In this document: positions 1,426-17,836 of the stretch, in pieces
How positions within the stretch are numbered: position 1 is the stretch's first letter
Layout: every line of letters starts with the position of its first letter
Virus record (IMG/VR): IMGVR_UViG_3300036944_001243
Reading direction: 5' to 3' (one strand)
Length of the DNA: 64,000 nucleotides
From: a virus
Taxonomy: Duplodnaviria > Heunggongvirae > Uroviricota > Caudoviricetes
Program-made: the position numbers and the translations under genes
The notes under the pieces: model-generated
Told to the model about the DNA's origin: nothing
Databases searched by the model: none
Seen by the model: only the letters and a program-made list of their open reading frames with translations

Positions 1426-1513
1426 GGTGCAGTAAATTACAAGACTTCCACGCAGTCTGCACTGGACAACTTTTTTAGTTGACAAACATTGTAATAAGTA
1501 ATAGATTTTAAAT

Positions 1514-1590
1514 CGTGGGTAGGACAAGATGGTTAGTCGAGAGTCTCATAAGCTCTATTCTGGGGGATTCAAGCGCCCCACCCGCAACCA
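1514..1590 (+). tRNA. tRNA-Met(CAT), C1-A72 mismatch (initiator-like), CCA encoded
   Basis: anticodon stem AGAGT/GCTCT loop CTCATAA; acceptor CGTGGGT/ACCCGCA with 1-72 C-A mismatch; CCA then AATTT. Confidence 0.6.
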
Positions 1591-1850
1591 ATTTTCAGTT
1601 ATTCGAAACAGAATCGGATATTAAAAATAAAAAGGCCCAAAGTCTGGAATTCCGAAAGAATTTGCAATGTGGTCGATACGCATTGACTGACAATTTCTAA
1701 CTACCTAAAAACCAGTTGGAAATATGCAAGAGCCTAGCTTGCACCGAAATAACTGACTAACATTTTTGAGTGCTGTTAGATAAGGGATACTTCTTCACTA
1801 TTAATGAAACCAAAAACCCCTTGTCGCCTGTTGCCTCAAATTCTTTTAAC

Positions 1851-3735: not shown

Positions 3736-3740
3736 TGTTT

Positions 3741-3870
3741 TATAGTGGTGATATGCATTGGTTACTTCTATTTGGCAGACGAGACGCAGGTTCGAATCCT
3801 GTCTCCGCGTATTGCGGTGTAGCTTAGTGGATAAAGCGCGAAAATACCAAAGCAGCCTGTTCCCTGTAAT
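3741..3870 (+). pseudogene. tRNA pseudogene fragments: orphan T-arm+3' acceptor (3781-3810, no CCA) followed by orphan tRNA 5' half (GCGGTGTAGCTTAGTGGATAAAGCGCG, 3814-3840)
   Basis: GCAGG-TTCGAAT-CCTGT T-arm with no complementary 5' acceptor within 100 nt; downstream 5'-half-like sequence with no T-arm. Confidence 0.35.
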
Positions 3871-10567: not shown

Positions 10568-11068
10568 TTAATGGCCCGTTACGCTAATTGGCAGTGCGGC
10601 TTCGCTTAAAACGAAGTGGTTCTCAGTTCGAATCTGAGGCGGGCTACTTTTTCTTCTTCTCCAAGTTGGAGTTTGTGCATGACAATTACAACATAAAAGT
10701 TTTAAATTAGATATTTCATTATTAGTCCTATCTCCATCTATATGTTCTATTTCCAATGGAATTAATTCTCCCATCCATTTTTGATTTTTACAATTTTCGC
10801 AACAATGACCTTTAAATTGTATTAAATGTTTTTTTAAATTTACAGCCCTAGAATAATTTTTCCAATCTTTAAGCTGTTGATCTTTATTCCATGCAGATCC
10901 AGTCCAATGAGAAGTGTCGATATTTAATCTCTGTAAATTTCTTTTAATATTTGCAAAATTTCCTCCTACGGATTTGAGGTTTAATTTCTTCAAAAGTTGA
11001 GAAATATTGTTGACATTTTTCGAATAATTAATAATATCTTCGTCTGTGTAGTTCCTGTATTTTTTCAT
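10568..11068 (-). CDS. HNH homing endonuclease
   Basis: EIEHIDGDRTNNEISNLKLLCCNCHAQT. Confidence 0.8.
   Translation of the reverse strand: MKKYRNYTDEDIINYSKNVNNISQLLKKLNLKSVGGNFANIKRNLQRLNIDTSHWTGSAWNKDQQLKDWKNYSRAVNLKKHLIQFKGHCCENCKNQKWMGELIPLEIEHIDGDRTNNEISNLKLLCCNCHAQTPTWRRRKSSPPQIRTENHFVLSEAALPISVTGH
10573..10646 (+). tRNA. tRNA with Leu anticodon TAA, class-I body, no CCA
   Basis: acceptor GGCCCGT/GCGGGCT (2 GU), anticodon stem CTTCG/CGAAG loop CTTAAAA, T-arm CTCAG-TTCGAAT-CTGAG; close paralog of 8927 tRNA. Confidence 0.45.
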
Positions 11069-12145: not shown

Positions 12146-12658
12146 ATGAGCGTTTACGTTATGGCAGATCCCCACCTTGGGCATCGAAATATTTTTAAGT
12201 ATCGAAAGTTCATTTCTTCTACAGAAGACAATACTCGCCTGATCCAAGAAGACTGGAACAAACACATCAATAAAAATGATGTCGTGTATGTTCTTGGGGA
12301 TGCAGCTTTCGATTATCATTCTCTGGCGCTTTTTGGAAACCTGAAAGGCCGCAAGATTCTTGTGAAAGGCAACCATGATGATTTGGTTAGCAGTCACGAT
12401 CAAATGAATGTCTTTGAAGAAATTCATGGCATCATCAAATACAAAGGCATGTGGTTTAGTCACTGTCCGATTCATCCTGATGAATTGCGCAAGTGCAAAC
12501 TGAATGTTCACGGTCATGTCCACATGCACACAATCATGAAAGGCTGGGGACCATGGCGCAAAGAAGATCCTCGATATGTCAACGCTTGTGTTGATGTGGT
12601 TTATCCAAAATTCGGGACTTGTTTTTTAACACTTGATTACTTGAGGGGTTTGGTGTAA
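12146..12658 (+). CDS. calcineurin-like metallophosphoesterase
   Basis: MADPHLGH...VLGDAAFD...GNHD...HGHVHMH phosphoesterase motifs. Confidence 0.6.
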   Translation: MSVYVMADPHLGHRNIFKYRKFISSTEDNTRLIQEDWNKHINKNDVVYVLGDAAFDYHSLALFGNLKGRKILVKGNHDDLVSSHDQMNVFEEIHGIIKYKGMWFSHCPIHPDELRKCKLNVHGHVHMHTIMKGWGPWRKEDPRYVNACVDVVYPKFGTCFLTLDYLRGLV

Positions 12659-13258
12659 TATCTAATATGCCAATTCCATCTCCAAGAAATAAAGAAAAAA
12701 AGACTGATTTTGTGAGCCGTTGCGTTTCGCAGATCAGTAAAGAATACAAAGACAATAAGCAAGCCGTAGCAATTTGCTACAATCAATTTCAAGAAGCAAA
12801 AGCATCTGCTGAAGGTGTTGTTGATTTGGAAAATGATGAAATGCTTATTTTAAAAGATTTATAATGGGATCGCGTAGTTTCGATTTTACGAAGGATTCAT
12901 TGATTAGCATCGCAAGAGATGATGGTTGGCTCTTTAAAAAATCCATCAAAAAAAAACAAACGGCAAAAATAACATTGTCACCTTCCGTAAGTCTGCAAAA
13001 GTTGTCCGCAAGGCCACTCTCGCTACTGCGTAAGTATCACGCTCAGAAGAACGCTCGCTCTTTTTTGAGTATCAAATCGAGCAACAAAACAGTTTGTTGA
13101 TTCTGCAAAAATCAACTGGTGGAGGACAAAGTAGGAACTACCAAGAACCGAATGTCCCTCAGATGACTAACTGTAAATAGTCAAAAATATAAGCATGTTT
13201 GAAGATCAATGAGAATAAGTAGAAGACACGGGGGGCGGCTCCCCGTCGATTCCACCAA

Positions 13259-13375
13259 TTTTGGGCATGACAAGGTGTAGATGAGAGTTCGAATCTCTCA
13301 CGGTCCACTCGACGGGCCGAATGGTAGTGGCGCGACGGCGCTCTTTGGGTTCGAATCCCAACATGTCCACTAATT
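13259..13375 (+). ncRNA. candidate Y-RNA-like ncRNA with tRNA-like modules, upstream of Ro60-like gene
   Basis: GGGCCGAATGGTAGTGG (13314-13330) closely matches conserved Y RNA 5' Ro-binding strand GGUCCGA(A/U)GGUAGUG; two T-arm-like hairpins GAGAG-TTCGAAT-CTCTC and TTGGG-TTCGAAT-CCCAA; CCACTA downstream complementary to TGGTAGTGG. Confidence 0.35.
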
Positions 13376-13389
13376 TTCCAAAAAACCGA

Positions 13390-13418
13390 TTGACTTTCGC
13401 CAGAAGATCGGCATAATA
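13390..13418 (+). promoter_or_regulatory. sigma70-like promoter TTGACT-N17-ATAATA
   Basis: consensus spacing; shares AAAACC(G)ATTGACTTTCG context with promoter at 19440. Confidence 0.55.
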
Positions 13419-13419
13419 G

Positions 13420-13870
13420 ATACAGATTTGAGTGCTGAATGAAACTGTTACTTCACTGCAATTCGAAAAAACACAGTTTCAAATTATTGCCTCAAAACTT
13501 TTTGTATCATTCCAGCTTTTGCAATGAGGACATGAGTAGATGACGTTTCAAGGACGCATCCTAGCCCCCTTCGAAAATGAGTGACCTGATCAAAGGTTGG
13601 AATGATATAAAAATACTTTTCAGTGGCGATTTAAAACGGCTACTTCTTTATATTGAACATAAAAGGTCTTGGTTCGAATCCAAGTGCGGCTTTGCAAGTC
13701 GTATGGTGTAATGGCAGCATTCAAACTATCCGTTTTAGCTTATTCCCTGAAATCTCTTCCTCTTAGGTGGCGAAGGTTACAGTTACTTCATAATCCCACG
13801 GGCTGATCGGTTCGATTCCGACTTGTTGTGTAATGGTAGCACTCCTGTTCAAAAAGCCTGTAATCGATTA
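13420..13870 (+). ncRNA. cluster of tRNA-like fragments (T-arm-like hairpins at 13667-13684, 13806-13822; D-arm-like GGTGTAATGGCAGC, GTAATGGTAGC) without complete cloverleafs
   Basis: no ORF; fragments in 3'-half then 5'-half order; between promoter 13390 and Ro60-like gene. Confidence 0.3.
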
Positions 13871-13893
13871 TTCCCCTATTTTTTTTATTTAAA

Positions 13894-15348
13894 ATGAAAC
13901 CTTACGGCTTAAAAGCTCGAAAACGTTTTCTTTGGGAAGACGTTGAAATCTCTAAAGGTAGAGAACGCTCTTCTGCTAATTCAAAAATCAGAAAAGAAGT
14001 TCTTGACTTTGACGAAAACGTAGATATAATCAGCGACATGAAAACAAATGTAAAAAATACTCCGAAGCCTGTTCGAACCCACGAAGGCGCGGTAGCGAAG
14101 CGCATCACTCCAATCCAAGAACTTCGACGTTCTGTTATGGCTTGCATGCTTTGGGAAAACTCCTTCTATGAATCTGGCAAGACAATTGCTGATCGTATCA
14201 AAGAACTTGTTTCCAAGGTTTCTGGAAAGGATGCGATGCACATCGCGATTGAGGCTCGCGAAAGCATGAAGTTGCGACACACCCCTCTTTATATTGCCCG
14301 CCTCATGGCCAAGAATCCAAAGCAGCGTGAATACGTTGCAGATACTTTGGTGCGAATCATCCAGCGAGCAGATGAACTTTCTGAGTTCTTATCTATCTAC
14401 TGGAAGGGCGGTAAGACTCCTATTGCAAACCAAGTGAAGAAAGGTCTTGCTACCGCATTCACAAAGTTTAATGAATATGATCTTTCAAAGTATAATCGTG
14501 ATGGTGCAGTCACACTGAAGGATGTTCTTTTTATGGTTCACGCTCGTCCTACTAGCGAAAACCAAGAAAAGCTCTGGAAGCGACTGATCAATGACGAACT
14601 CAAGACTCCTGATACTTGGGAAGTTGAACTCTCAGCTTCTAAGGACAAGAAGGCTTCTTGGACTCGCCTTTTGGAAGAAAATAAGCTTGGCGCACTCGCG
14701 CTTCTTCGAAACATTCGAAACATGGAAGAAGCAAAGGTTCCTGAAAAGTTGATTCGATCTGCTCTTCTTAACATGAAGACCGAACGAGTTCTTCCTTTCC
14801 GCTTCATTTCTGCTGCGCGTCATGCTCCTAAGTATGAAAACGAACTGGAATCCTCCATGCTCAAGTGCATGGAAAATAGCGAAAAGCTTTCTGGTAAGAC
14901 TATTATTCTTGTTGATATTTCTGTTTCAATGCACAGCAAAGTTTCTGGCAAGAGTGATATTTCTCGCTTGGATGCTGCTTGCGGTGTCGCAATGCTTCTG
15001 CGAGAAATCTGTGATACTGTTGAAGTCCACAGCTTTTCTTACAAGACCAAGCTCGTTCCTTCTCGTCGCGGCTTCGCCTTGGCAGAAGCAATCAGCAAGT
15101 CTCAGATGCATCAGGGAACTTACCTTGGAGAATCCGTCAAGGAAATGAACCTGAAGTCTGCTGATCGTTTGATTGTCATCACTGATGAACAGTCTGCGGA
15201 TCGGGTTCCTAATCCAGCTTTTGACAAAGCTTACATGATCAATATCGCGTCTTACAGGAACGGTGTTGGTTATGACAAGTGGACTCATATCGATGGTTGG
15301 AGTGAATCGGTAGTTAATTACATTATTTCTCTTGAAAAAGAGTTCTAA
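13894..15348 (+). CDS. TROVE + von Willebrand A domain protein, Ro60/Rsr-like RNA-binding protein
   Basis: 484 aa; central ...MLWENSFYESGKT... TROVE-like; C-terminal vWA with MIDAS DxSxS (TIILVDISVSMHS) as in Ro60 (DVSGSM). Confidence 0.55.
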   Translation: MKPYGLKARKRFLWEDVEISKGRERSSANSKIRKEVLDFDENVDIISDMKTNVKNTPKPVRTHEGAVAKRITPIQELRRSVMACMLWENSFYESGKTIADRIKELVSKVSGKDAMHIAIEARESMKLRHTPLYIARLMAKNPKQREYVADTLVRIIQRADELSEFLSIYWKGGKTPIANQVKKGLATAFTKFNEYDLSKYNRDGAVTLKDVLFMVHARPTSENQEKLWKRLINDELKTPDTWEVELSASKDKKASWTRLLEENKLGALALLRNIRNMEEAKVPEKLIRSALLNMKTERVLPFRFISAARHAPKYENELESSMLKCMENSEKLSGKTIILVDISVSMHSKVSGKSDISRLDAACGVAMLLREICDTVEVHSFSYKTKLVPSRRGFALAEAISKSQMHQGTYLGESVKEMNLKSADRLIVITDEQSADRVPNPAFDKAYMINIASYRNGVGYDKWTHIDGWSESVVNYIISLEKEF

Positions 15349-15391
15349 ATAGTGTATAATAAAAGCAGAGAGGTGAAAGCCCTCTCAAATT

Positions 15392-15466
15392 GCGGGTATC
15401 GTATAGTGGTTATTATGGGACTCTTCCAAAGTTCAGAGGTCAGTTCGATCCTGACTATCCGCACCA
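15392..15466 (+). tRNA. tRNA-Gly(TCC)
   Basis: acceptor GCGGGTA/TATCCGC, anticodon stem GGACT/AGTTC loop CTTCCAA, T-arm GTCAG-TTCGATC-CTGAC, CCA. Confidence 0.75.
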
Positions 15467-15963
15467 TTTTTTTTCATATTTGAATTTCTCCCAGCAAATG
15501 TGGAAGTCTGTGAATGACAATTCGGGCATAAAAAACATAGATTTTCAAATCTATTATCATTGTTGATTCCATTTTTATGCTCTAGTTGAAGAGTAAGAGG
15601 CTTTTTATTCCAAATCGGGAGTTGTCCACATTCGTAGCATTTATTCTCCCATCCCATTTCTATCAAATATTTTTTTAATTGTTTGTTGCTTGAGTAAGTC
15701 GAATCTTTGCAAAATAACAAATTATTATTAAATTTATTGATTGATTTGAGATTTTTCATACGCAAATCATAGCCTCTTTTTTTAACAGGATTTAAATCTA
15801 TTTGATCTCTTTCACATCTTTTCTTTAAAGTTCTATGATTTCCATTGTATGCATTAAGATTTAATTTTTGTAAAATTTCAACAATTGAATTAGATGAGTT
15901 GATTATTTCTAATAATTGTGTATAATCTATTGTCCATATAATACTTGTTTTTGTTCTTGGCAT
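15433..15963 (-). CDS. HNH homing endonuclease
   Basis: LEHKNGINNDNRFENLCFLCPNCH; 3' end overlaps tRNA-Gly on opposite strand. Confidence 0.75.
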   Translation of the reverse strand: MPRTKTSIIWTIDYTQLLEIINSSNSIVEILQKLNLNAYNGNHRTLKKRCERDQIDLNPVKKRGYDLRMKNLKSINKFNNNLLFCKDSTYSSNKQLKKYLIEMGWENKCYECGQLPIWNKKPLTLQLEHKNGINNDNRFENLCFLCPNCHSQTSTFAGRNSNMKKNGADSQDRTDL

Positions 15964-16312: not shown

Positions 16313-17836
16313 ATGGGTCCAAGACAGCTTCAATCACAAATACACTCTGATTACTCTTCTGTGTCAGATACGTGGATAGCATACCGAACAGGGGTTTCGG
16401 GTTTGTATGCCGCCGCTTCAAAAAAAGACGATTACTCTGACCATTTGATTAGAGAGTTTAATCGCAAAATTAAGAATTTAAATCAACCAACTGGATTATT
16501 CATTGCTCCTTTTGATGCAGGATACAGATTCATTGGCACCCAGATTTTCCCGCCTGTTGGTATTGATACCATCAGCGGTTTTGCGTTTCCAAATGAAACA
16601 CTTTCTTCTCCTTCTGGAGTTTCTTATTCTTGGACAGTCGATTCCGTATCAAGAGGAACAGGATCGACATTCATTCCTACAGTCTATGATATTGGCAAGA
16701 CAGTCACTTGCGTAGTAGATAATGTTTCTTATTCTGCCTCCGTTTGGCACCCAAATCAAATCTCTGCGGTTAAAGCATTTTGGTGGGCTGGAGCGACTAG
16801 CGGAGTTTACAAATCAGGGACTTCTAATGCTGCTGTAGATGGAGAAATTGTAGGTTTATTTAGTGGATTAATAAATTCTGAAACTGCCACTGCAATTGGC
16901 GCTGCTTCTTTATATAAAACAGGCTTATTAAGCAGCCCTTGTATTCAAATGCCAGATTCTGCGTTTTTCAACGTTGATCCTCCACCAGAAGATATTGCTT
17001 TAAATCAAAAATACTTTAATGTGTTTATGGGGGCTAGAGCAACTGGTGCTGTGGGCGGAAGTCATTATTTGTTTTCCACAAGCGATACCTCAGAAAATAT
17101 TTTATCATTTGGTCCTTTATTAAGCAGCACTGGTAATTATTTCATTACAGCATCAACTGCAACTGGCGCTGATTATACATATACAGGCAGAGCATCTAAT
17201 ACTGGCTATTCTGTTTATAATGCAGCAGCAGCTTATAACGACGGATTAGTTAGTTTAAGAGTAAATGGCTCTGGCATTGCGACAGGTTCTCTTGGCGGCA
17301 CTGGCATATCTTCTAGCACCAACAATGTAATGTATCTAAACAGAAGCATTGGAACCCCAACATCCGCTGTTTCTAATCCATGTGATTTGACCGCAGTTAT
17401 TTTGACTGCTGGTAATGCTCAAATATCTTCTCAAGATTCAAACAGAATTGAAAGATTTATTGGTTTGCTGGGAGGAATCAATATTCCTCTTAGCACAGGA
17501 GGAAAGTCAGTTAATTTGAGATTTTACATGGGAACTTCAGGATCAGTTTCTGTTACAGTAGGAGGCATCACAAAAAATATGTCTGGTAACACTGGCACCA
17601 TGACTTTCACCGCAGCAGAGATTGCAAGCCTGAATTTATCTGGAAACTTAAATGTAAGCGGTTCTATTACTGCAAGTCCAGATATTGACACGATTGAGAT
17701 CCTTGCAGAAGATACTTCTAAAGTTAATAATCTGTCGTATACTGCTGGATCTTCAACAAATTTCAGCTTTACAATTGTCTATGATGAAGTTGTTGATAAT
17801 GACACTTTAGATTTTCAAGTTTCCCTCAATACTTAG
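16313..17836 (+). CDS. Gly/Ser/Thr-rich large protein, putative tail fiber/structural protein
   Basis: 507 aa, low-complexity G/S/T/N-rich beta-rich composition typical of fibers. Confidence 0.3.
   Translation: MGPRQLQSQIHSDYSSVSDTWIAYRTGVSGLYAAASKKDDYSDHLIREFNRKIKNLNQPTGLFIAPFDAGYRFIGTQIFPPVGIDTISGFAFPNETLSSPSGVSYSWTVDSVSRGTGSTFIPTVYDIGKTVTCVVDNVSYSASVWHPNQISAVKAFWWAGATSGVYKSGTSNAAVDGEIVGLFSGLINSETATAIGAASLYKTGLLSSPCIQMPDSAFFNVDPPPEDIALNQKYFNVFMGARATGAVGGSHYLFSTSDTSENILSFGPLLSSTGNYFITASTATGADYTYTGRASNTGYSVYNAAAAYNDGLVSLRVNGSGIATGSLGGTGISSSTNNVMYLNRSIGTPTSAVSNPCDLTAVILTAGNAQISSQDSNRIERFIGLLGGINIPLSTGGKSVNLRFYMGTSGSVSVTVGGITKNMSGNTGTMTFTAAEIASLNLSGNLNVSGSITASPDIDTIEILAEDTSKVNNLSYTAGSSTNFSFTIVYDEVVDNDTLDFQVSLNT

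What the first reader, a model, noticed from the sequence alone, without database searches (positions are those of the whole stretch)
13225..15348. Candidate phage Ro60 (TROVE+vWA) gene preceded by Y-RNA-like, tRNA-like ncRNA modules
- ORF 13894-15348 (484 aa) combines a TROVE-like central region with a C-terminal vWA domain bearing a MIDAS DxSxS motif. That is the domain architecture of Ro60/Rsr.
- The 650 bp ORF-free stretch immediately upstream, after a consensus promoter at 13390, is packed with tRNA-like pieces: four T-arm-like hairpins of the form GGTTCGAATCC, and D-arm-like GTAATGGTAGC segments.
- At 13314-13330 the sequence GGGCCGAATGGTAGTGG is almost identical to the conserved Ro60-binding 5' strand of metazoan and bacterial Y RNAs (GGUCCGA(A/U)GGUAGUGG), and the complementary CCACTA lies 35 nt downstream.
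- Bacterial and mycobacteriophage Y RNAs are known to carry tRNA-like domains and to be encoded next to rsr.
- This looks like an Rsr/Y-RNA module embedded in a phage tRNA array, with an unusual multi-module ncRNA.
Basis: partly seen in the sequence, partly recalled or inferred. Interest (0 to 1): 0.8.

Follow-up and report, generated by a model that had tools for sequence, protein, structure and literature searches.

The report
Phage Ro60 gene with Y RNAs
A large phage carries, inside its tRNA/tmRNA gene island, a Ro60 RNA-binding protein gene preceded by three tRNA-mimicking "Y RNA" partner genes.

Summary
The ORF 13894-15348 is a genuine Ro60/Rsr orthologue. It scores 57.8 bits on Pfam TROVE (cut-off 23), aligns over its full length to Thermus phage phiRo60 (PDB 9KOP, E=1e-22) and has a DISVS MIDAS motif.

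The ORF-free DNA upstream holds three Y RNA modules behind their own promoter (13390-13417):
- M1, 13427-13497, short.
- M3, 13619-13751, with T-arm, acceptor-like hairpin and D-arm.
- M4, 13763-13878, with T and D arms only.

Two further modules lie 10-12 kb away between tRNA genes (1765-1841 and 3741-3868).

A covariance model built from related loci finds such modules beside the TROVE gene in other viral contigs and in five cultured phages. It also gives 198 hits in 80 bacterial loci, all upstream of the gene and on its strand. All 14 helix pairs covary, the long modules fold as circularly permuted tRNAs, and the 15:48 Levitt pair covaries, as published for YrlA.

Verdict: a new member of a known kind. 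E1 remains unexplained.

The parts
12866..13257 (+). Phage tmRNA (context). Its T-arm and ACCA end form the first 33 nt of the finding's interval.
   Evidence: Rfam RF00023 scores 61.2 bits against a cut-off of 47. The orthologue in L001 was called by ARAGORN and scores 113 bits in Rfam. The tag reading frame is GKNNIVTFRKSAKVVRKATLATA*. ARAGORN missed it in the window.
13263..13372 (+). E1, a 110-nt tRNA-like RNA of unknown function. It has a 7-bp acceptor stem GGGCAUG/CAUGUCC with G3:U70 and discriminator A. It also has T-arm 1 (13283-13299), a 6-bp hairpin (13301-06/13314-19), a D-loop-like linker AAUGGUAGU (13320-28), a 5-bp tetraloop hairpin (13329-42) and T-arm 2 (13345-61).
   Evidence: RNAalifold of the three known copies gives 31 pairs, 3 of them compensatory. 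The single-sequence MFE structure is the same. Rfam gives only a weak tmRNA tRNA-like-domain match of 15.7 bits. Model R2 finds it only in the window, L001 and L002. Pattern scans of the viral and metagenome collections found no further copies.
13390..13417 (+). Sigma-70-like promoter (TTGACT-16-CATAAT) of the Y RNA array.
   Evidence: The consensus scan matches 10 of 12 positions. The sequence is nearly identical in L001, and an equivalent TTGACT...TACAAT stands at the same place in L002. Function is inferred.
13427..13497 (+). Y RNA module M1 (short, YrlB-like, no tRNA-like domain). Layout: UUUGAG-U-GC / UGAAUG / AAACUGU / UUACUUCA ... ACAGUUU / CAAAUUAUU / GC-CUCAAA.
   Evidence: Model R1 scores 65.2 bits, E=4e-15. 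The h2 helix covaries in L001 (AAACGGU/ACCGUUU) and L002 (AUUCGG/CCGAAU).
13499..13613 (+). Rod-like hairpin M2 with a 23-bp basal stem. It is not a Y module. I infer it is an RNase III-type processing stem or spacer in the precursor.
   Evidence: MFE is -41.3 kcal/mol, z=-5.1, with 0 of 200 shuffles as stable. L001 keeps the stem with a compensatory U-A to C-G change (z=-6.0). L002 has a Y module at this position instead.
13619..13751 (+). Y RNA module M3 (YrlA-like, complete). Layout: UUCAG-U-GG / CGAUUU / AAAACGG / CUACUUC / V region / T-arm 13668-84 / acceptor-like hairpin 13686-13702 / D-arm 13706-20 / CCGUUUU / AGCUUAUU / CC-CUGAA.
   Evidence: It is placed in MAFFT alignment A6, where RNAalifold recovers h1, h2, T, AS and D, with 27 of 31 pairs compensatory. 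Its Levitt pair is A15:U48. h1b and h2 covary in L002. The R1 hit is only partial (16.2 bits, E=0.057).
13763..13886 (+). Y RNA module M4 (YrlA-like without the acceptor-like hairpin). Layout: UUAGG-U-GG / CGAAGG / UUACAG / UUACUUCA / T-arm 13806-22 / UUGUU / D-arm 13828-42 / CCUGUAA / UCGAUUAUU / CC-CCUA, then a U8 run at 13879-86.
   Evidence: R1 scores 46.5 bits, E=1e-9, or 37.3 bits with filters off. GGCGAAGG matches the published GNCGAAN0-1G motif exactly. The helix next to the motif covaries in L001 (GGUUACAG/CUGUAAUC becomes AAUUGCAG/CUGUAAUU).
13894..15348 (+). Ro60/Rsr orthologue (TROVE + vWA with MIDAS DISVS at 14914-28). The conserved core starts at Met49 (14038).
   Evidence: Pfam TROVE scores 57.8 bits against a cut-off of 23. 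PDB 9KOP/9L5Y (phiRo60) aligns at E=1e-22 over residues 60-481. The clade profile hits phiRo60 at 5.7e-41, human RO60 at 8e-12, Xenopus Ro60 at 1e-9 and Deinococcus Rsr at 1.5e-7. There are 96 phage records with homologues.
14003..14030 (+). Promoter-like site (TTGACT-16-TATAAT) inside the annotated ORF, 7 nt before Met49. It may drive a near-leaderless Ro60 mRNA.
   Evidence: It matches 11 of 12 consensus positions. The hexamers are conserved in L001, while the surrounding 'N-terminal' peptide is not. The L002 orthologue starts at the equivalent MKTNVKN behind its own TTGACA/TATGAT. Homologues align only from residue 47-62 onwards.
1765..1841 (+). Additional short Y RNA module in the tRNA array, 12 kb upstream. 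It ends 10 nt before tRNA-Met.
   Evidence: R1 scores 54.8 bits, E=2.4e-12. Sequence.
3741..3868 (+). Additional complete YrlA-like module (T-arm 3785-3803, acceptor-like hairpin 3805-17, D-arm 3822-37), wedged between tRNA-Thr and tRNA-Ile.
   Evidence: R1 scores 29 bits, E=5e-5. Sequence. It is a member of A6, with all five helices predicted. Its Levitt pair is G15:C48.

Best explanation
The locus is a phage-encoded Ro60 ribonucleoprotein system.

**Shown by computation**
- The ORF is a Ro60/Rsr orthologue.
- The DNA between 13427 and 13878 encodes three modules of the YrlA/YrlB class of bacterial Y RNAs.
- Each module has a terminal helix with a bulged U, then an internal loop carrying the YGAAGR (GNCGAA-type) motif opposite CGYUUGUU. 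A second helix and a conserved YUACUUC follow. After that comes either a plain loop (M1) or a circularly permuted tRNA-like domain: T-arm, closed acceptor-like hairpin and D-arm in M3, and T and D arms only in M4.

**Inferred**
- The array is transcribed from the promoter at 13390 as a precursor of about 470 nt. That precursor is cut into individual Y RNAs, perhaps at the long M2 hairpin. M4's terminal stem plus U-run attenuates read-through into the Ro60 gene, which also has its own promoter at 14003.
- By analogy with Deinococcus, Salmonella and Thermus phage phiLo, the helix and internal loop bind the outer surface of the Ro60 ring. The RNA then gates the ring's cavity and tethers it to host polynucleotide phosphorylase (PNPase), steering degradation or quality control of structured RNAs during infection.
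- The two extra modules at 1765 and 3741 sit flush between tRNA genes. They would be released by the same RNase P / 3'-end processing that matures the tRNAs.

The 110-nt element E1 (13263-13372) is a separate tRNA-like RNA and not one of these modules.
For: **Protein.** Evidence comes: TROVE above threshold, full-length homology to phiRo60, and profile hits to human, Xenopus and Deinococcus Ro60.

**RNA family**
- Reading of 14 related viral loci shows 2-4 modules with the same motifs directly upstream of each TROVE gene.
- Model R1 hits M1, M4 and the 1765 and 3740 modules at E<=5e-5, and M3 partially.
- R1 also hits unannotated DNA beside the TROVE gene in Xanthomonas MET23-P3, CcrColossus, Brevundimonas Domovoi, crAss001 and Streptomyces phage Quantum.
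- It gives 198 hits at E<1e-3 in 80 bacterial loci, every one on the gene's strand and upstream of it.

**Structure**
- On 34 hits, 14 of 14 pairs show compensatory change. 90.8% of cells are paired against 43-52% when the partner is slid, and the covariation score is 0.83 against 0.20 or less.
- RNAalifold on an unfitted MAFFT alignment of 20 long modules recovers h1, h2, T, AS and D, with 27 of 31 pairs compensatory.
- The tertiary 15:48 pair is G:C in 9 modules and A:U in 7, out of 19 informative ones. Only 5 of 10,000 shuffles do as well.

**Match to published descriptions**
- These features match those of YrlA: the GNCGAAN0-1G and YUAY motifs, the V-T-AS-D order, Levitt covariation, location within 4 kb on the same strand as rsr, and presence in phages (PMC4201824).
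- They also match the YrlA crystal-structure layout (10.1101/312249).
- phiRo60 of Thermus phage phiLo binds two upstream Y-like RNAs and host PNPase (PMC12135203).
Against: - No Rfam family hits any module. Assignment therefore rests on my own model and on published descriptions, not on a curated model.
- I could not obtain a published YrlA sequence (for example Salmonella or M. smegmatis) to score with R1 as a positive control. The link to actinobacterial-type YrlA rests on one weak hit (Streptomyces phage Quantum, E=1e-3) and on reading.
- M3 scores poorly with R1 (16 bits). Its motif is CGAUUU rather than CGAAGG.
- M4 lacks the acceptor-like hairpin.
- Alignment A3 was fitted to the model, which inflates pair counts.
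- No expression or binding data exist for this phage.
- Ralstonia phage RsoM2USA, the closest cultured homologue by protein, shows no R1 hit. The RNA partner is therefore not universal.
Confidence: 0.85

Rival explanations
1. One reading: the Ro60-binding Y RNA is the element at 13263-13372 (E1). In this view GGGCCGAAUGGUAGUGG acts as the conserved metazoan-type 5' strand, paired with CCACUA.
For: - The string is nearly identical to the 5' strand of vertebrate Y RNAs. That comparison is from my memory of the hY4 sequence, so it is a lead and not a test.
- It contains a CGAA motif at a helix junction, the criterion used to pick Yrl1 and Yrl2 in phage phiLo.
- E1 is conserved in the three related phages with compensatory changes, and it lies within 600 nt of the Ro60 gene on the same strand.
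Against: - The proposed 3' partner is not conserved (CCACUA, CCACCA, CCACAA), and L001 changes the 5' strand to GUAGUAGU.
- In all three copies GGGCCG pairs instead with an upstream CGGUCC.
- Rfam Y_RNA gives no hit at E<=10.
- R1 does not hit E1 even with filters off.
- E1 lacks the family's YUACUUC and CGYUUGUUCC motifs.
- The core AAUGGUAG is a D-loop sequence. It is shared with M4's D-arm and with the D-arm GCGGAAUGGUAGACGC of a bona fide module in the sister phage.
- E1 is absent from all other TROVE loci searched.
Confidence: 0.12
2. The upstream tRNA-like pieces are decaying tRNA pseudogenes left over in a phage tRNA array, with no function of their own.
For: - The region sits in an array of 31 tRNA genes.
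- T-arm and D-arm sequences are tRNA-like.
- ARAGORN and the Rfam tRNA model do not call them.
Against: - The T-AS-D order is circularly permuted relative to tRNA.
- Non-tRNA motifs (YGAAGR, YUACUUC, CGYUUGUUCC) and the two closing helices are conserved with compensatory changes across phages and bacteria.
- All 198 bacterial hits are upstream of the TROVE gene and on its strand.
- Bacterial loci without tRNA arrays have the same modules.
Confidence: 0.02
3. The structured RNA at 13427-13886 is a cis-acting 5' leader of the Ro60 mRNA, acting as an autoregulatory or attenuator element, and does not give rise to free-standing Y RNAs.
For: - It lies directly upstream on the same strand.
- M4's terminal stem is followed by a U8 run (13879-86), like an attenuator.
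- No strong Shine-Dalgarno precedes the ATG at 13894.
Against: - Modules also occur 10-12 kb away between tRNAs, and downstream of the gene in crAss001.
- The Ro60 core has its own conserved promoter-like site at 14003-14030.
- In M. smegmatis, YrlA and YrlB upstream of rsr are processed from one precursor into stable Rsr-bound RNAs (PMC4201824).
- The two roles are not mutually exclusive.
Confidence: 0.06

Closest known systems
YrlA / YrlB Y RNAs with Rsr (Salmonella Typhimurium, Mycobacterium smegmatis, mycobacteriophages; Chen et al. 2014, PMC4201824; Wang et al. 2018, 10.1101/312249)
   Same: - The modules are encoded next to the Ro60 orthologue on the same strand, several in tandem.
- They share the 5' GNCGAA-type motif and YUAY at the start of the V region.
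- They share the T stem-loop, closed acceptor-like stem-loop and D stem-loop in that order, i.e. a circularly permuted tRNA.
- The Levitt 15:48 pair covaries.
- Short partner RNAs without the full tRNA domain also occur (YrlB-like M1).
   Different: - In this clade both strands of the Ro60-type helix and loop are conserved (bulged U, GG/CC, CGYUUGUUCC). The published YrlA description recognises only the 5' strand.
- M4 lacks the acceptor-like hairpin.
- Two modules are dispersed among tRNA genes more than 10 kb from the Ro60 gene, outside the 4-kb criterion.
- I could run no curated model or published sequence as a control.
phiRo60 with Yrl1/Yrl2 of Thermus phage phiLo (PDB 9KOP, 9L5Y; PMC12135203)
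   Same: - It is the closest solved structure (E=1e-22, full length).
- It is a phage-encoded Ro60 with Y-like RNAs upstream of the gene, identified by a CGAA motif in a stem-bulge-stem.
- It binds host PNPase.
   Different: - Sequence identity is low: the profile-level E-value is 5.7e-41, but the two are different clades.
- The phiLo RNAs were described without a tRNA-like domain or tRNA-array context.
- This locus has five modules plus a tmRNA and E1.
Deinococcus radiodurans Rsr-Yrn1-PNPase (RYPER) complex
   Same: It is the model for the mechanism. The Y RNA binds the Ro60 ring and tethers PNPase for degradation of structured RNA, and Yrn1 also carries a T-arm.
   Different: - Yrn1 has the opposite order of D- and T-like elements and keeps the metazoan-type helix on both strands.
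- The window's protein matches Rsr only at profile level (E=1.5e-7, vWA region).
tmRNA tRNA-like domain and alanine minihelix (comparison for E1 only)
   Same: - A 7-bp acceptor stem with G3:U70 and A73 is stacked on a T-arm.
- There is no D-stem; a GG-containing linker follows the 5' acceptor strand.
- An ACCA end is encoded in L001.
- There is a weak Rfam tmRNA match limited to these parts (15.7 bits).
   Different: - E1 has no mRNA-like region or pseudoknots.
- It has a second T-arm, a 6-bp hairpin and a tetraloop hairpin inside.
- The 3' tail is ACUA or ACAA in two of the three copies.
- It scores far below the tmRNA and tRNA thresholds.

Membership tests
Ro60 / Rsr (TROVE + vWA ring protein) | TROVE (HEAT-repeat) domain | tested here: met
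   Pfam PF05731 scores 57.8 bits against a cut-off of 23. All 6 clade members match.
Ro60 / Rsr (TROVE + vWA ring protein) | C-terminal vWA domain with MIDAS DxSxS | tested here: met
   DISVS (nt 14914-28) aligns with VDVSGSM of phiRo60. Pfam vWA_Ro60 scores only 19 bits (cut-off 27.7) for this protein, but matches 6 of 6 clade members at E<=0.01, best 1.2e-6.
Ro60 / Rsr (TROVE + vWA ring protein) | Full-length homology to structurally characterised Ro60 proteins | tested here: met
   PDB 9KOP/9L5Y aligns at E=1e-22 over residues 60-481. The profile hits 9KOP at 5.7e-41, human RO60 9NEN at 8e-12, Xenopus 1YVP at 1e-9 and Deinococcus 2NVO at 1.5e-7.
Ro60 / Rsr (TROVE + vWA ring protein) | Closed ring fold, and binding of Y RNA on the outer surface with misfolded RNA in the cavity | not tested
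   No structure prediction was run. Binding cannot be tested with these tools.
YrlA/YrlB-type bacterial Y RNA | Encoded within about 4 kb of the Ro60 gene on the same strand | tested here: met
   M1, M3 and M4 lie 16-470 nt upstream on the + strand. The modules at 1765 and 3741 are on the same strand but 10-12 kb away, so they fail this criterion.
YrlA/YrlB-type bacterial Y RNA | GNCGAAN0-1G motif near the 5' end | tested here: met
   M4 has GGCGAAGG, an exact match. M1 has GCUGAAUG and M3 has GGCGAUUU, each with one mismatch. The family consensus is GG-YGAAGR.
YrlA/YrlB-type bacterial Y RNA | Conserved YUAY opening the V region | tested here: met
   UUAC or CUAC, within the conserved YUACUUC, is present in all five window modules. 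It is nearly invariant in A1 and A6.
YrlA/YrlB-type bacterial Y RNA | T stem-loop, acceptor-like stem-loop and D stem-loop in that order (circularly permuted tRNA) | tested here: met
   RNAalifold on MAFFT alignment A6, which includes win3740 and winM3, predicts T (5 bp), AS (6 bp) and D (4 bp), with 27 of 31 pairs compensatory. M4 has T and D but no AS. M1 has none of them (YrlB-like).
YrlA/YrlB-type bacterial Y RNA | Covariation of the Levitt pair (G15:C48 or A15:U48) | tested here: met
   G:C occurs 9 times, A:U 7 times and other combinations 3 times, among 19 informative modules. Only 5 of 10,000 shuffles reach this; the test is not corrected for phylogeny. win3740 has G:C and winM3 has A:U.
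YrlA/YrlB-type bacterial Y RNA | Match to a curated covariance model or to a published YrlA sequence | tested here: inconclusive
   Rfam 15 hits no module in the window or in 12 related loci. The supplementary models of Chen et al. are not held.
YrlA/YrlB-type bacterial Y RNA | Bound by Ro60 in vivo; carries pseudouridine 55 and dihydrouridine modifications | not testable with these tools
   This needs immunoprecipitation and modification mapping.
   There is no Y_RNA hit at E<=10 in 13240-13900 or in 12800-15600.
   The partner CCACUA is not conserved (CCACCA, CCACAA). The 5' strand pairs with an upstream CGGUCC in all three copies.
tRNA / tmRNA (for E1) | Called by ARAGORN or reaching the Rfam tRNA/tmRNA gathering score | tested here: not met
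   ARAGORN makes no call. The Rfam tmRNA model scores 15.7 bits against a cut-off of 47 and covers the acceptor and T parts only.

The most novel reading that the evidence does not exclude
E1 (13263-13372) could be a new class of phage tRNA mimic: a 'double-elbow' RNA.

- A tmRNA-like alanine acceptor/T-arm minihelix (G3:U70, A73; ACCA encoded in one copy) encloses a second, YrlA-like T-arm / hairpin / D-loop unit.
- It is made from the tmRNA transcript by RNase P.
- It could be charged by alanyl-tRNA synthetase, or could act as a decoy or adaptor linking the tmRNA, tRNA-processing or Ro60 pathways.

Its conservation with compensatory changes in three phages argues that it is functional. Nothing like it was found in any other TROVE locus or collection searched.
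Probability: 0.3. Interest if true: 0.6.

Novelty: new member of a known kind. Interest (0 to 1): 0.4.

Why it matters
Phage-encoded Ro60 with Y RNAs has been known since 2014 and was studied structurally in 2025, so the system itself is not new. The analysis still adds four useful things.

- **A usable signature.** It gives a clear sequence and structure signature for the Y RNAs of one large Ro60 clade: a bulged U, GG/CC, YGAAGR opposite CGYUUGUUCC, and YUACUUC. Rfam does not detect these RNAs.
- **Missing annotation.** The modules are unannotated in the cultured phages checked, including crAss001, CcrColossus, Xanthomonas and Brevundimonas phages. The same holds for hundreds of Acidobacteriota loci, and tandem arrays are the norm.
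- **Cassettes among tRNAs.** Y RNA modules can sit as cassettes between tRNA genes, which suggests they are released by tRNA-processing enzymes.
- **A translation and RNA-surveillance island.** The Ro60/Y RNA system sits beside a phage tmRNA and 31 tRNAs, the kind of gene island that large phages bring into the cell. This makes the phage clade a candidate system for asking what Ro60 does during infection.

The unexplained tRNA-like RNA E1 is the one part that might be new.

Tried and rejected
- **Rfam.** I ran cmscan at E<=10 on 12800-15600 and on 13240-13900, and at gathering thresholds on 12 related loci. Only tmRNA and tRNAs were found, with no Y_RNA or YrlA-type hit anywhere. Rfam is therefore uninformative for this family.
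- **ARAGORN.** It calls none of the modules or E1 and missed the window's tmRNA.
- **DNA search in cultured phages.** blastn of the locus, and of tmRNA+E1, against 50,697 phage records gave only a 75-nt coding match or nothing.
- **Pattern scans for more E1 copies.**
  - Two viral scans returned only the two known relatives, plus ordinary tandem tRNAs.
  - The one metagenome scan returned a duplicate of L002 and an unrelated contig, L023.
  - Model R2 found no E1 in 362 kb of TROVE loci.
- **D-stem in E1.** I considered a D-stem GCCG/UGGC. It is also compatible with the three sequences, including one double change. However, it excludes the 6-bp hairpin and part of the tetraloop hairpin, both of which are kept in all copies. 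Three sequences cannot decide between them.
- **E1 as two tandem mini-tRNAs.** The tandem pairing gives only 4+4 bp, against 7+6 bp for the nested fold.
- **Permuted two-piece tmRNA.** I considered one in which T-arm 2 pairs with GGACAUG at about 13527. The partner is absent in L001, so I rejected it.
- **Protein-profile scan.** The search for related loci with the 9-sequence alignment failed because it had no conserved stretch. A 6-sequence alignment worked.
- **Literature.** The supplementary tables of Chen et al. and two Wolin reviews are not held.
- **Weak R1 hit.** The hit at 17698-17752 (19 bits) lies inside an ORF and lacks h2 and YUAC, so I treat it as a false positive.

Full report
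**1. What is in the sequence**

The window is part of a large phage genome. It carries RIIA, a virion structural protein and nicotinamide phosphoribosyltransferase. It also has 31 tRNA genes, all on the + strand, between 1353 and 16271.

The finding's interval holds the following, in order:
- the last 33 nt of a tmRNA (12866-13257; Rfam 61.2 bits against a cut-off of 47; tag frame GKNNIVTFRKSAKVVRKATLATA*; missed by ARAGORN);
- a 110-nt structured element I call E1 (13263-13372);
- a sigma-70-like site, TTGACT-16-CATAAT, at 13390-13417;
- 470 nt without credible ORFs;
- the ORF 13894-15348.

However, two of the four T-arm hairpins lie before the promoter, not after it.

**2. The protein**

The ORF is a Ro60/Rsr orthologue.
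- Pfam TROVE scores 57.8 bits against a cut-off of 23.
- The protein aligns over residues 60-481 with PDB 9KOP/9L5Y at E=1e-22. This includes the MIDAS motif, DISVS here and DVSGS there.
- Those entries are phiRo60 of Thermus phage phiLo. That protein binds two Y-like RNAs encoded upstream of its gene and forms complexes with host PNPase (PMC12135203).
- A profile of the clade also reaches human RO60 (8e-12), Xenopus Ro60 (1e-9) and Deinococcus Rsr (1.5e-7).
- Ninety-six cultured phage genomes encode homologues, including Ralstonia RsoM2USA, Brevundimonas and Caulobacter jumbo phages, Xanthomonas phages, crAss001, Rhizobium phages and actinophages.
- At least 494 bacterial loci, mostly Acidobacteriota, encode relatives at 56-61% identity.

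The first 48 codons are doubtful.
- Homologues align only from residue 47-62 onwards.
- The sister phage L002 starts its gene at the equivalent MKTNVKN.
- The window and L001 share a TTGACT-16-TATAAT/TACAAT site ending 7 nt before Met49 (14038), while the 'peptide' around it is not conserved.

**3. The RNA modules**

Fourteen related viral contigs all show the same pattern directly upstream of the TROVE gene on its strand: two to four copies of one design. Read 5' to 3', the design is:
- a helix of 4-7 bp;
- a bulged U;
- two more pairs, usually GG/CC, but GC/GC, GU/AC, AC/GU or AG/CU in some copies;
- YGAAGR;
- a second helix of 6-8 bp;
- YUACUUC;
- either a short loop, or a V region followed by a T-arm, a closed hairpin and a D-arm;
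- an A-rich stretch;
- the return strand of the second helix;
- CGYUUGUU;
- CC plus the return strand of the first helix.

I built a covariance model (R1) from 15 short copies. In the window it finds:
- 13427-13497 (65.2 bits);
- 13762-13881 (46.5 bits);
- 1765-1841 (54.8 bits);
- 3740-3870 (29 bits);
- a partial match at 13634-13744 (16.2 bits).

On 34 hits, all 14 modelled pairs show compensatory changes. 90.8% of cells are paired, against 43-52% when the partner is slid. The covariation score is 0.83 against 0.20 or less, and no shuffle reaches the observed values. That alignment was fitted to the model, so I also made an unfitted test. I aligned 20 long modules with MAFFT, including the window's 3740 and 13622 copies, and ran RNAalifold. 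It recovered both closing helices plus a 5-bp T-arm, a 6-bp hairpin and a 4-bp D-arm, with 27 of 31 pairs compensatory.

**4. Why these are Y RNAs of the YrlA/YrlB class**

Chen et al. (PMC4201824) define YrlA by these features:
- a location within 4 kb of rsr on the same strand;
- a 5' GNCGAAN0-1G motif;
- a YUAY that opens the V region;
- T, acceptor-like (AS) and D stem-loops in that order;
- compensatory G15:C48 / A15:U48 Levitt pairs.

The crystal-structure paper gives the same layout and calls most YrlAs circularly permuted tRNAs with closed acceptor stems (10.1101/312249).

The window's modules meet these features.
- M4 carries GGCGAAGG exactly. M1 and M3 are one mismatch away.
- All modules carry UUAC or CUAC.
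- M3 and the 3741 module have T, AS and D. M4 has T and D only. M1 has none, like YrlB.
- In the long-module alignment the 15:48 positions are G:C nine times and A:U seven times among 19 informative copies. Only 5 of 10,000 shuffles do as well, and the test is not corrected for phylogeny.

R1 also hits unannotated DNA next to the TROVE gene in Xanthomonas MET23-P3, CcrColossus, Brevundimonas Domovoi, crAss001 (there downstream of the gene) and, weakly, Streptomyces phage Quantum. In 80 bacterial loci it gives 198 hits at E<1e-3, every one upstream of the gene and on its strand.

Tandem arrays are therefore normal for this clade, not unusual. I could not get a published YrlA sequence or model as a positive control.

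**5.

The string GGGCCGAAUGGUAGUGG (13314-13330) lies in E1, upstream of the Y RNA promoter.

E1 is conserved in only three phages: the window, L001 and L002 (L022 is a duplicate of L002). It always lies directly after the tmRNA 3' end. RNAalifold and single-sequence folding agree on the structure:
- a 7-bp outer stem GGGCAUG/CAUGUCC, with G3:U70 and an unpaired A followed by CUA, CCA or CAA;
- a T-arm-like hairpin;
- a 6-bp hairpin in which GGGCCG pairs with an upstream CGGUCC;
- the linker AAUGGUAGU;
- a 5-bp tetraloop hairpin;
- a second T-arm.

Three pairs change on both sides.

L001 has GUAGUAGU and CCACCA, and L002 has CCACAA. E1 lacks YUACUUC and CGYUUGUUCC, and R1 does not hit it. Rfam Y_RNA does not hit it either.

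The core AAUGGUAG is a D-loop sequence. It recurs in tRNA-Val, in M4's D-arm and, as GCGGAAUGGUAGACGC, in the D-arm of a bona fide module of the sister phage. So the resemblance to vertebrate Y RNA is best explained as a tRNA-type D-loop element.

I infer that E1 combines a tmRNA-like alanine acceptor/T-arm minihelix with an inner T-arm/hairpin/D-loop unit of the YrlA type. Its function is unknown, and binding to Ro60 is not excluded. Scans of the viral and metagenome collections and model R2 found no further copies.

**6. How it probably works**

Shown here: the gene, the modules, their structure and their genomic association.

Inferred:
- The promoter at 13390 drives a precursor holding M1, a very stable rod-like hairpin, M3 and M4. 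The hairpin spans 13499-13613 and has z=-5.1. L001 keeps it with a compensatory change, and L002 has a Y module in its place.
- The precursor is cut into individual RNAs, as shown for M. smegmatis YrlA and YrlB.
- M4's terminal stem plus U8 may attenuate read-through.
- The two dispersed modules sit flush between tRNA genes. The 3741-3868 module begins 5 nt after tRNA-Thr and ends 5 nt before tRNA-Ile. They would be released by tRNA end-processing.
- By analogy with Deinococcus, Salmonella and phage phiLo, the bulged helix and internal loop bind Ro60, and the RNA tethers host PNPase. Ro60 then takes part in degradation or surveillance of structured RNAs during infection, alongside the phage's tRNAs and tmRNA.

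**7. Verdict**

The system is a new member of a known kind. The unexplained E1 RNA, the Y RNA cassettes among the tRNAs, and the lack of any database model or annotation for this widespread Y RNA subfamily are the points worth keeping.

Noticed in passing
window 12866-13257 (+): A phage tmRNA was found by Rfam (61.2 bits) but missed by ARAGORN. Its tag frame, GKNNIVTFRKSAKVVRKATLATA*, ends in ATA rather than the usual LAA. The L001 orthologue is called by ARAGORN with tag ...KASLAAA.
   Followed up: partly
window 13263-13372 (+); L001 2284-2393; L002 1627-1733: E1 is a 110-nt tRNA-like RNA with two T-arms and an alanine-type acceptor stem (G3:U70, A73). It always lies directly after the tmRNA and is known from only three phages. 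Its function is unknown.
   Followed up: yes
window 1765-1841 and 3741-3868 (+); L022 2827-2975: Y RNA modules sit as cassettes between tRNA genes, 10-12 kb from the Ro60 gene. A comparable long module follows tRNA-Met in the sister phage.
   Followed up: partly
window 13499-13613 (+); L001 2592-2728: A very stable rod-like hairpin lies between Y modules M1 and M3 (23-bp basal stem, z=-5.1 and -6.0). One compensatory change separates the two phages. The sister phage L002 has a Y module at this position instead. It may be an RNase III-type processing site.
   Followed up: partly
window 14003-14040 (+): A near-consensus promoter-like site (TTGACT-16-TATAAT) lies inside the annotated Ro60 ORF, 7 nt before Met49. 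The L002 orthologue starts at that methionine. The real start may therefore be 14038, perhaps on a leaderless mRNA.
   Followed up: partly
L026 3948-4269 (crAss001); L025 1220-2413 (CcrColossus); L027 1824-2420 (Xanthomonas MET23-P3); L028 1642-2268 (Brevundimonas Domovoi); L029 1210-2400 (Rhizobium RHph_TM30): Cultured phages carry unannotated Y RNA modules beside their TROVE genes. In crAss001 they lie downstream of the gene. The Rhizobium phage has about eight modules by eye, with a GUUGCGA-type motif that R1 barely detects.
   Followed up: partly
L032-L111 (80 bacterial loci, mostly Acidobacteriota/Terriglobia MAGs): There are 198 Y-module hits, all upstream of the TROVE gene and on its strand. 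Arrays of two to five or more modules appear to be the rule in this clade, and Rfam has no model that detects them.
   Followed up: partly
L023 236-380 (metagenome contig Ga0164241_10034402): An unrelated contig carries two tandem permuted tRNA-like units (T-arm, closed hairpin, D-arm, twice). They are followed by an anticodon-arm-like hairpin, CUACA-CUGAUAA-UGUAG. No TROVE gene was seen in the 3.8-kb contig.
   Followed up: no
window about 1506-1592 (+): A possible degenerate tRNA-like sequence has an acceptor-like GUGGGU/ACCCGC + ACCA, an anticodon-loop-like CUCAUAA and an odd T-loop. Neither ARAGORN nor Rfam (E<=1) calls it.
   Followed up: partly
L001 2396-2470: L001 has an extra stretch of about 80 nt between E1 and the Y RNA promoter. 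It is absent from the window and ends in ...GGAACCCACCA, so it may be another small tRNA-like element.
   Followed up: no
window 10568-11068 (-), 15433-15963 (-), 12146-12658 (+): HNH-type homing endonuclease-like ORFs lie on the opposite strand inside the tRNA array. A metallophosphoesterase (PHROG 547) lies just upstream of the tmRNA and could belong to an RNA-repair context.
   Followed up: no
L002 1560-1626 / L022 7300-7825: In the sister phage only the 3' end of a tmRNA (T-arm + UUUCCCCACCA) is recognisable before E1. Neither ARAGORN nor Rfam calls a tmRNA there, and a minus-strand ORF lies just upstream. The tmRNA may be interrupted or lost.
   Followed up: no
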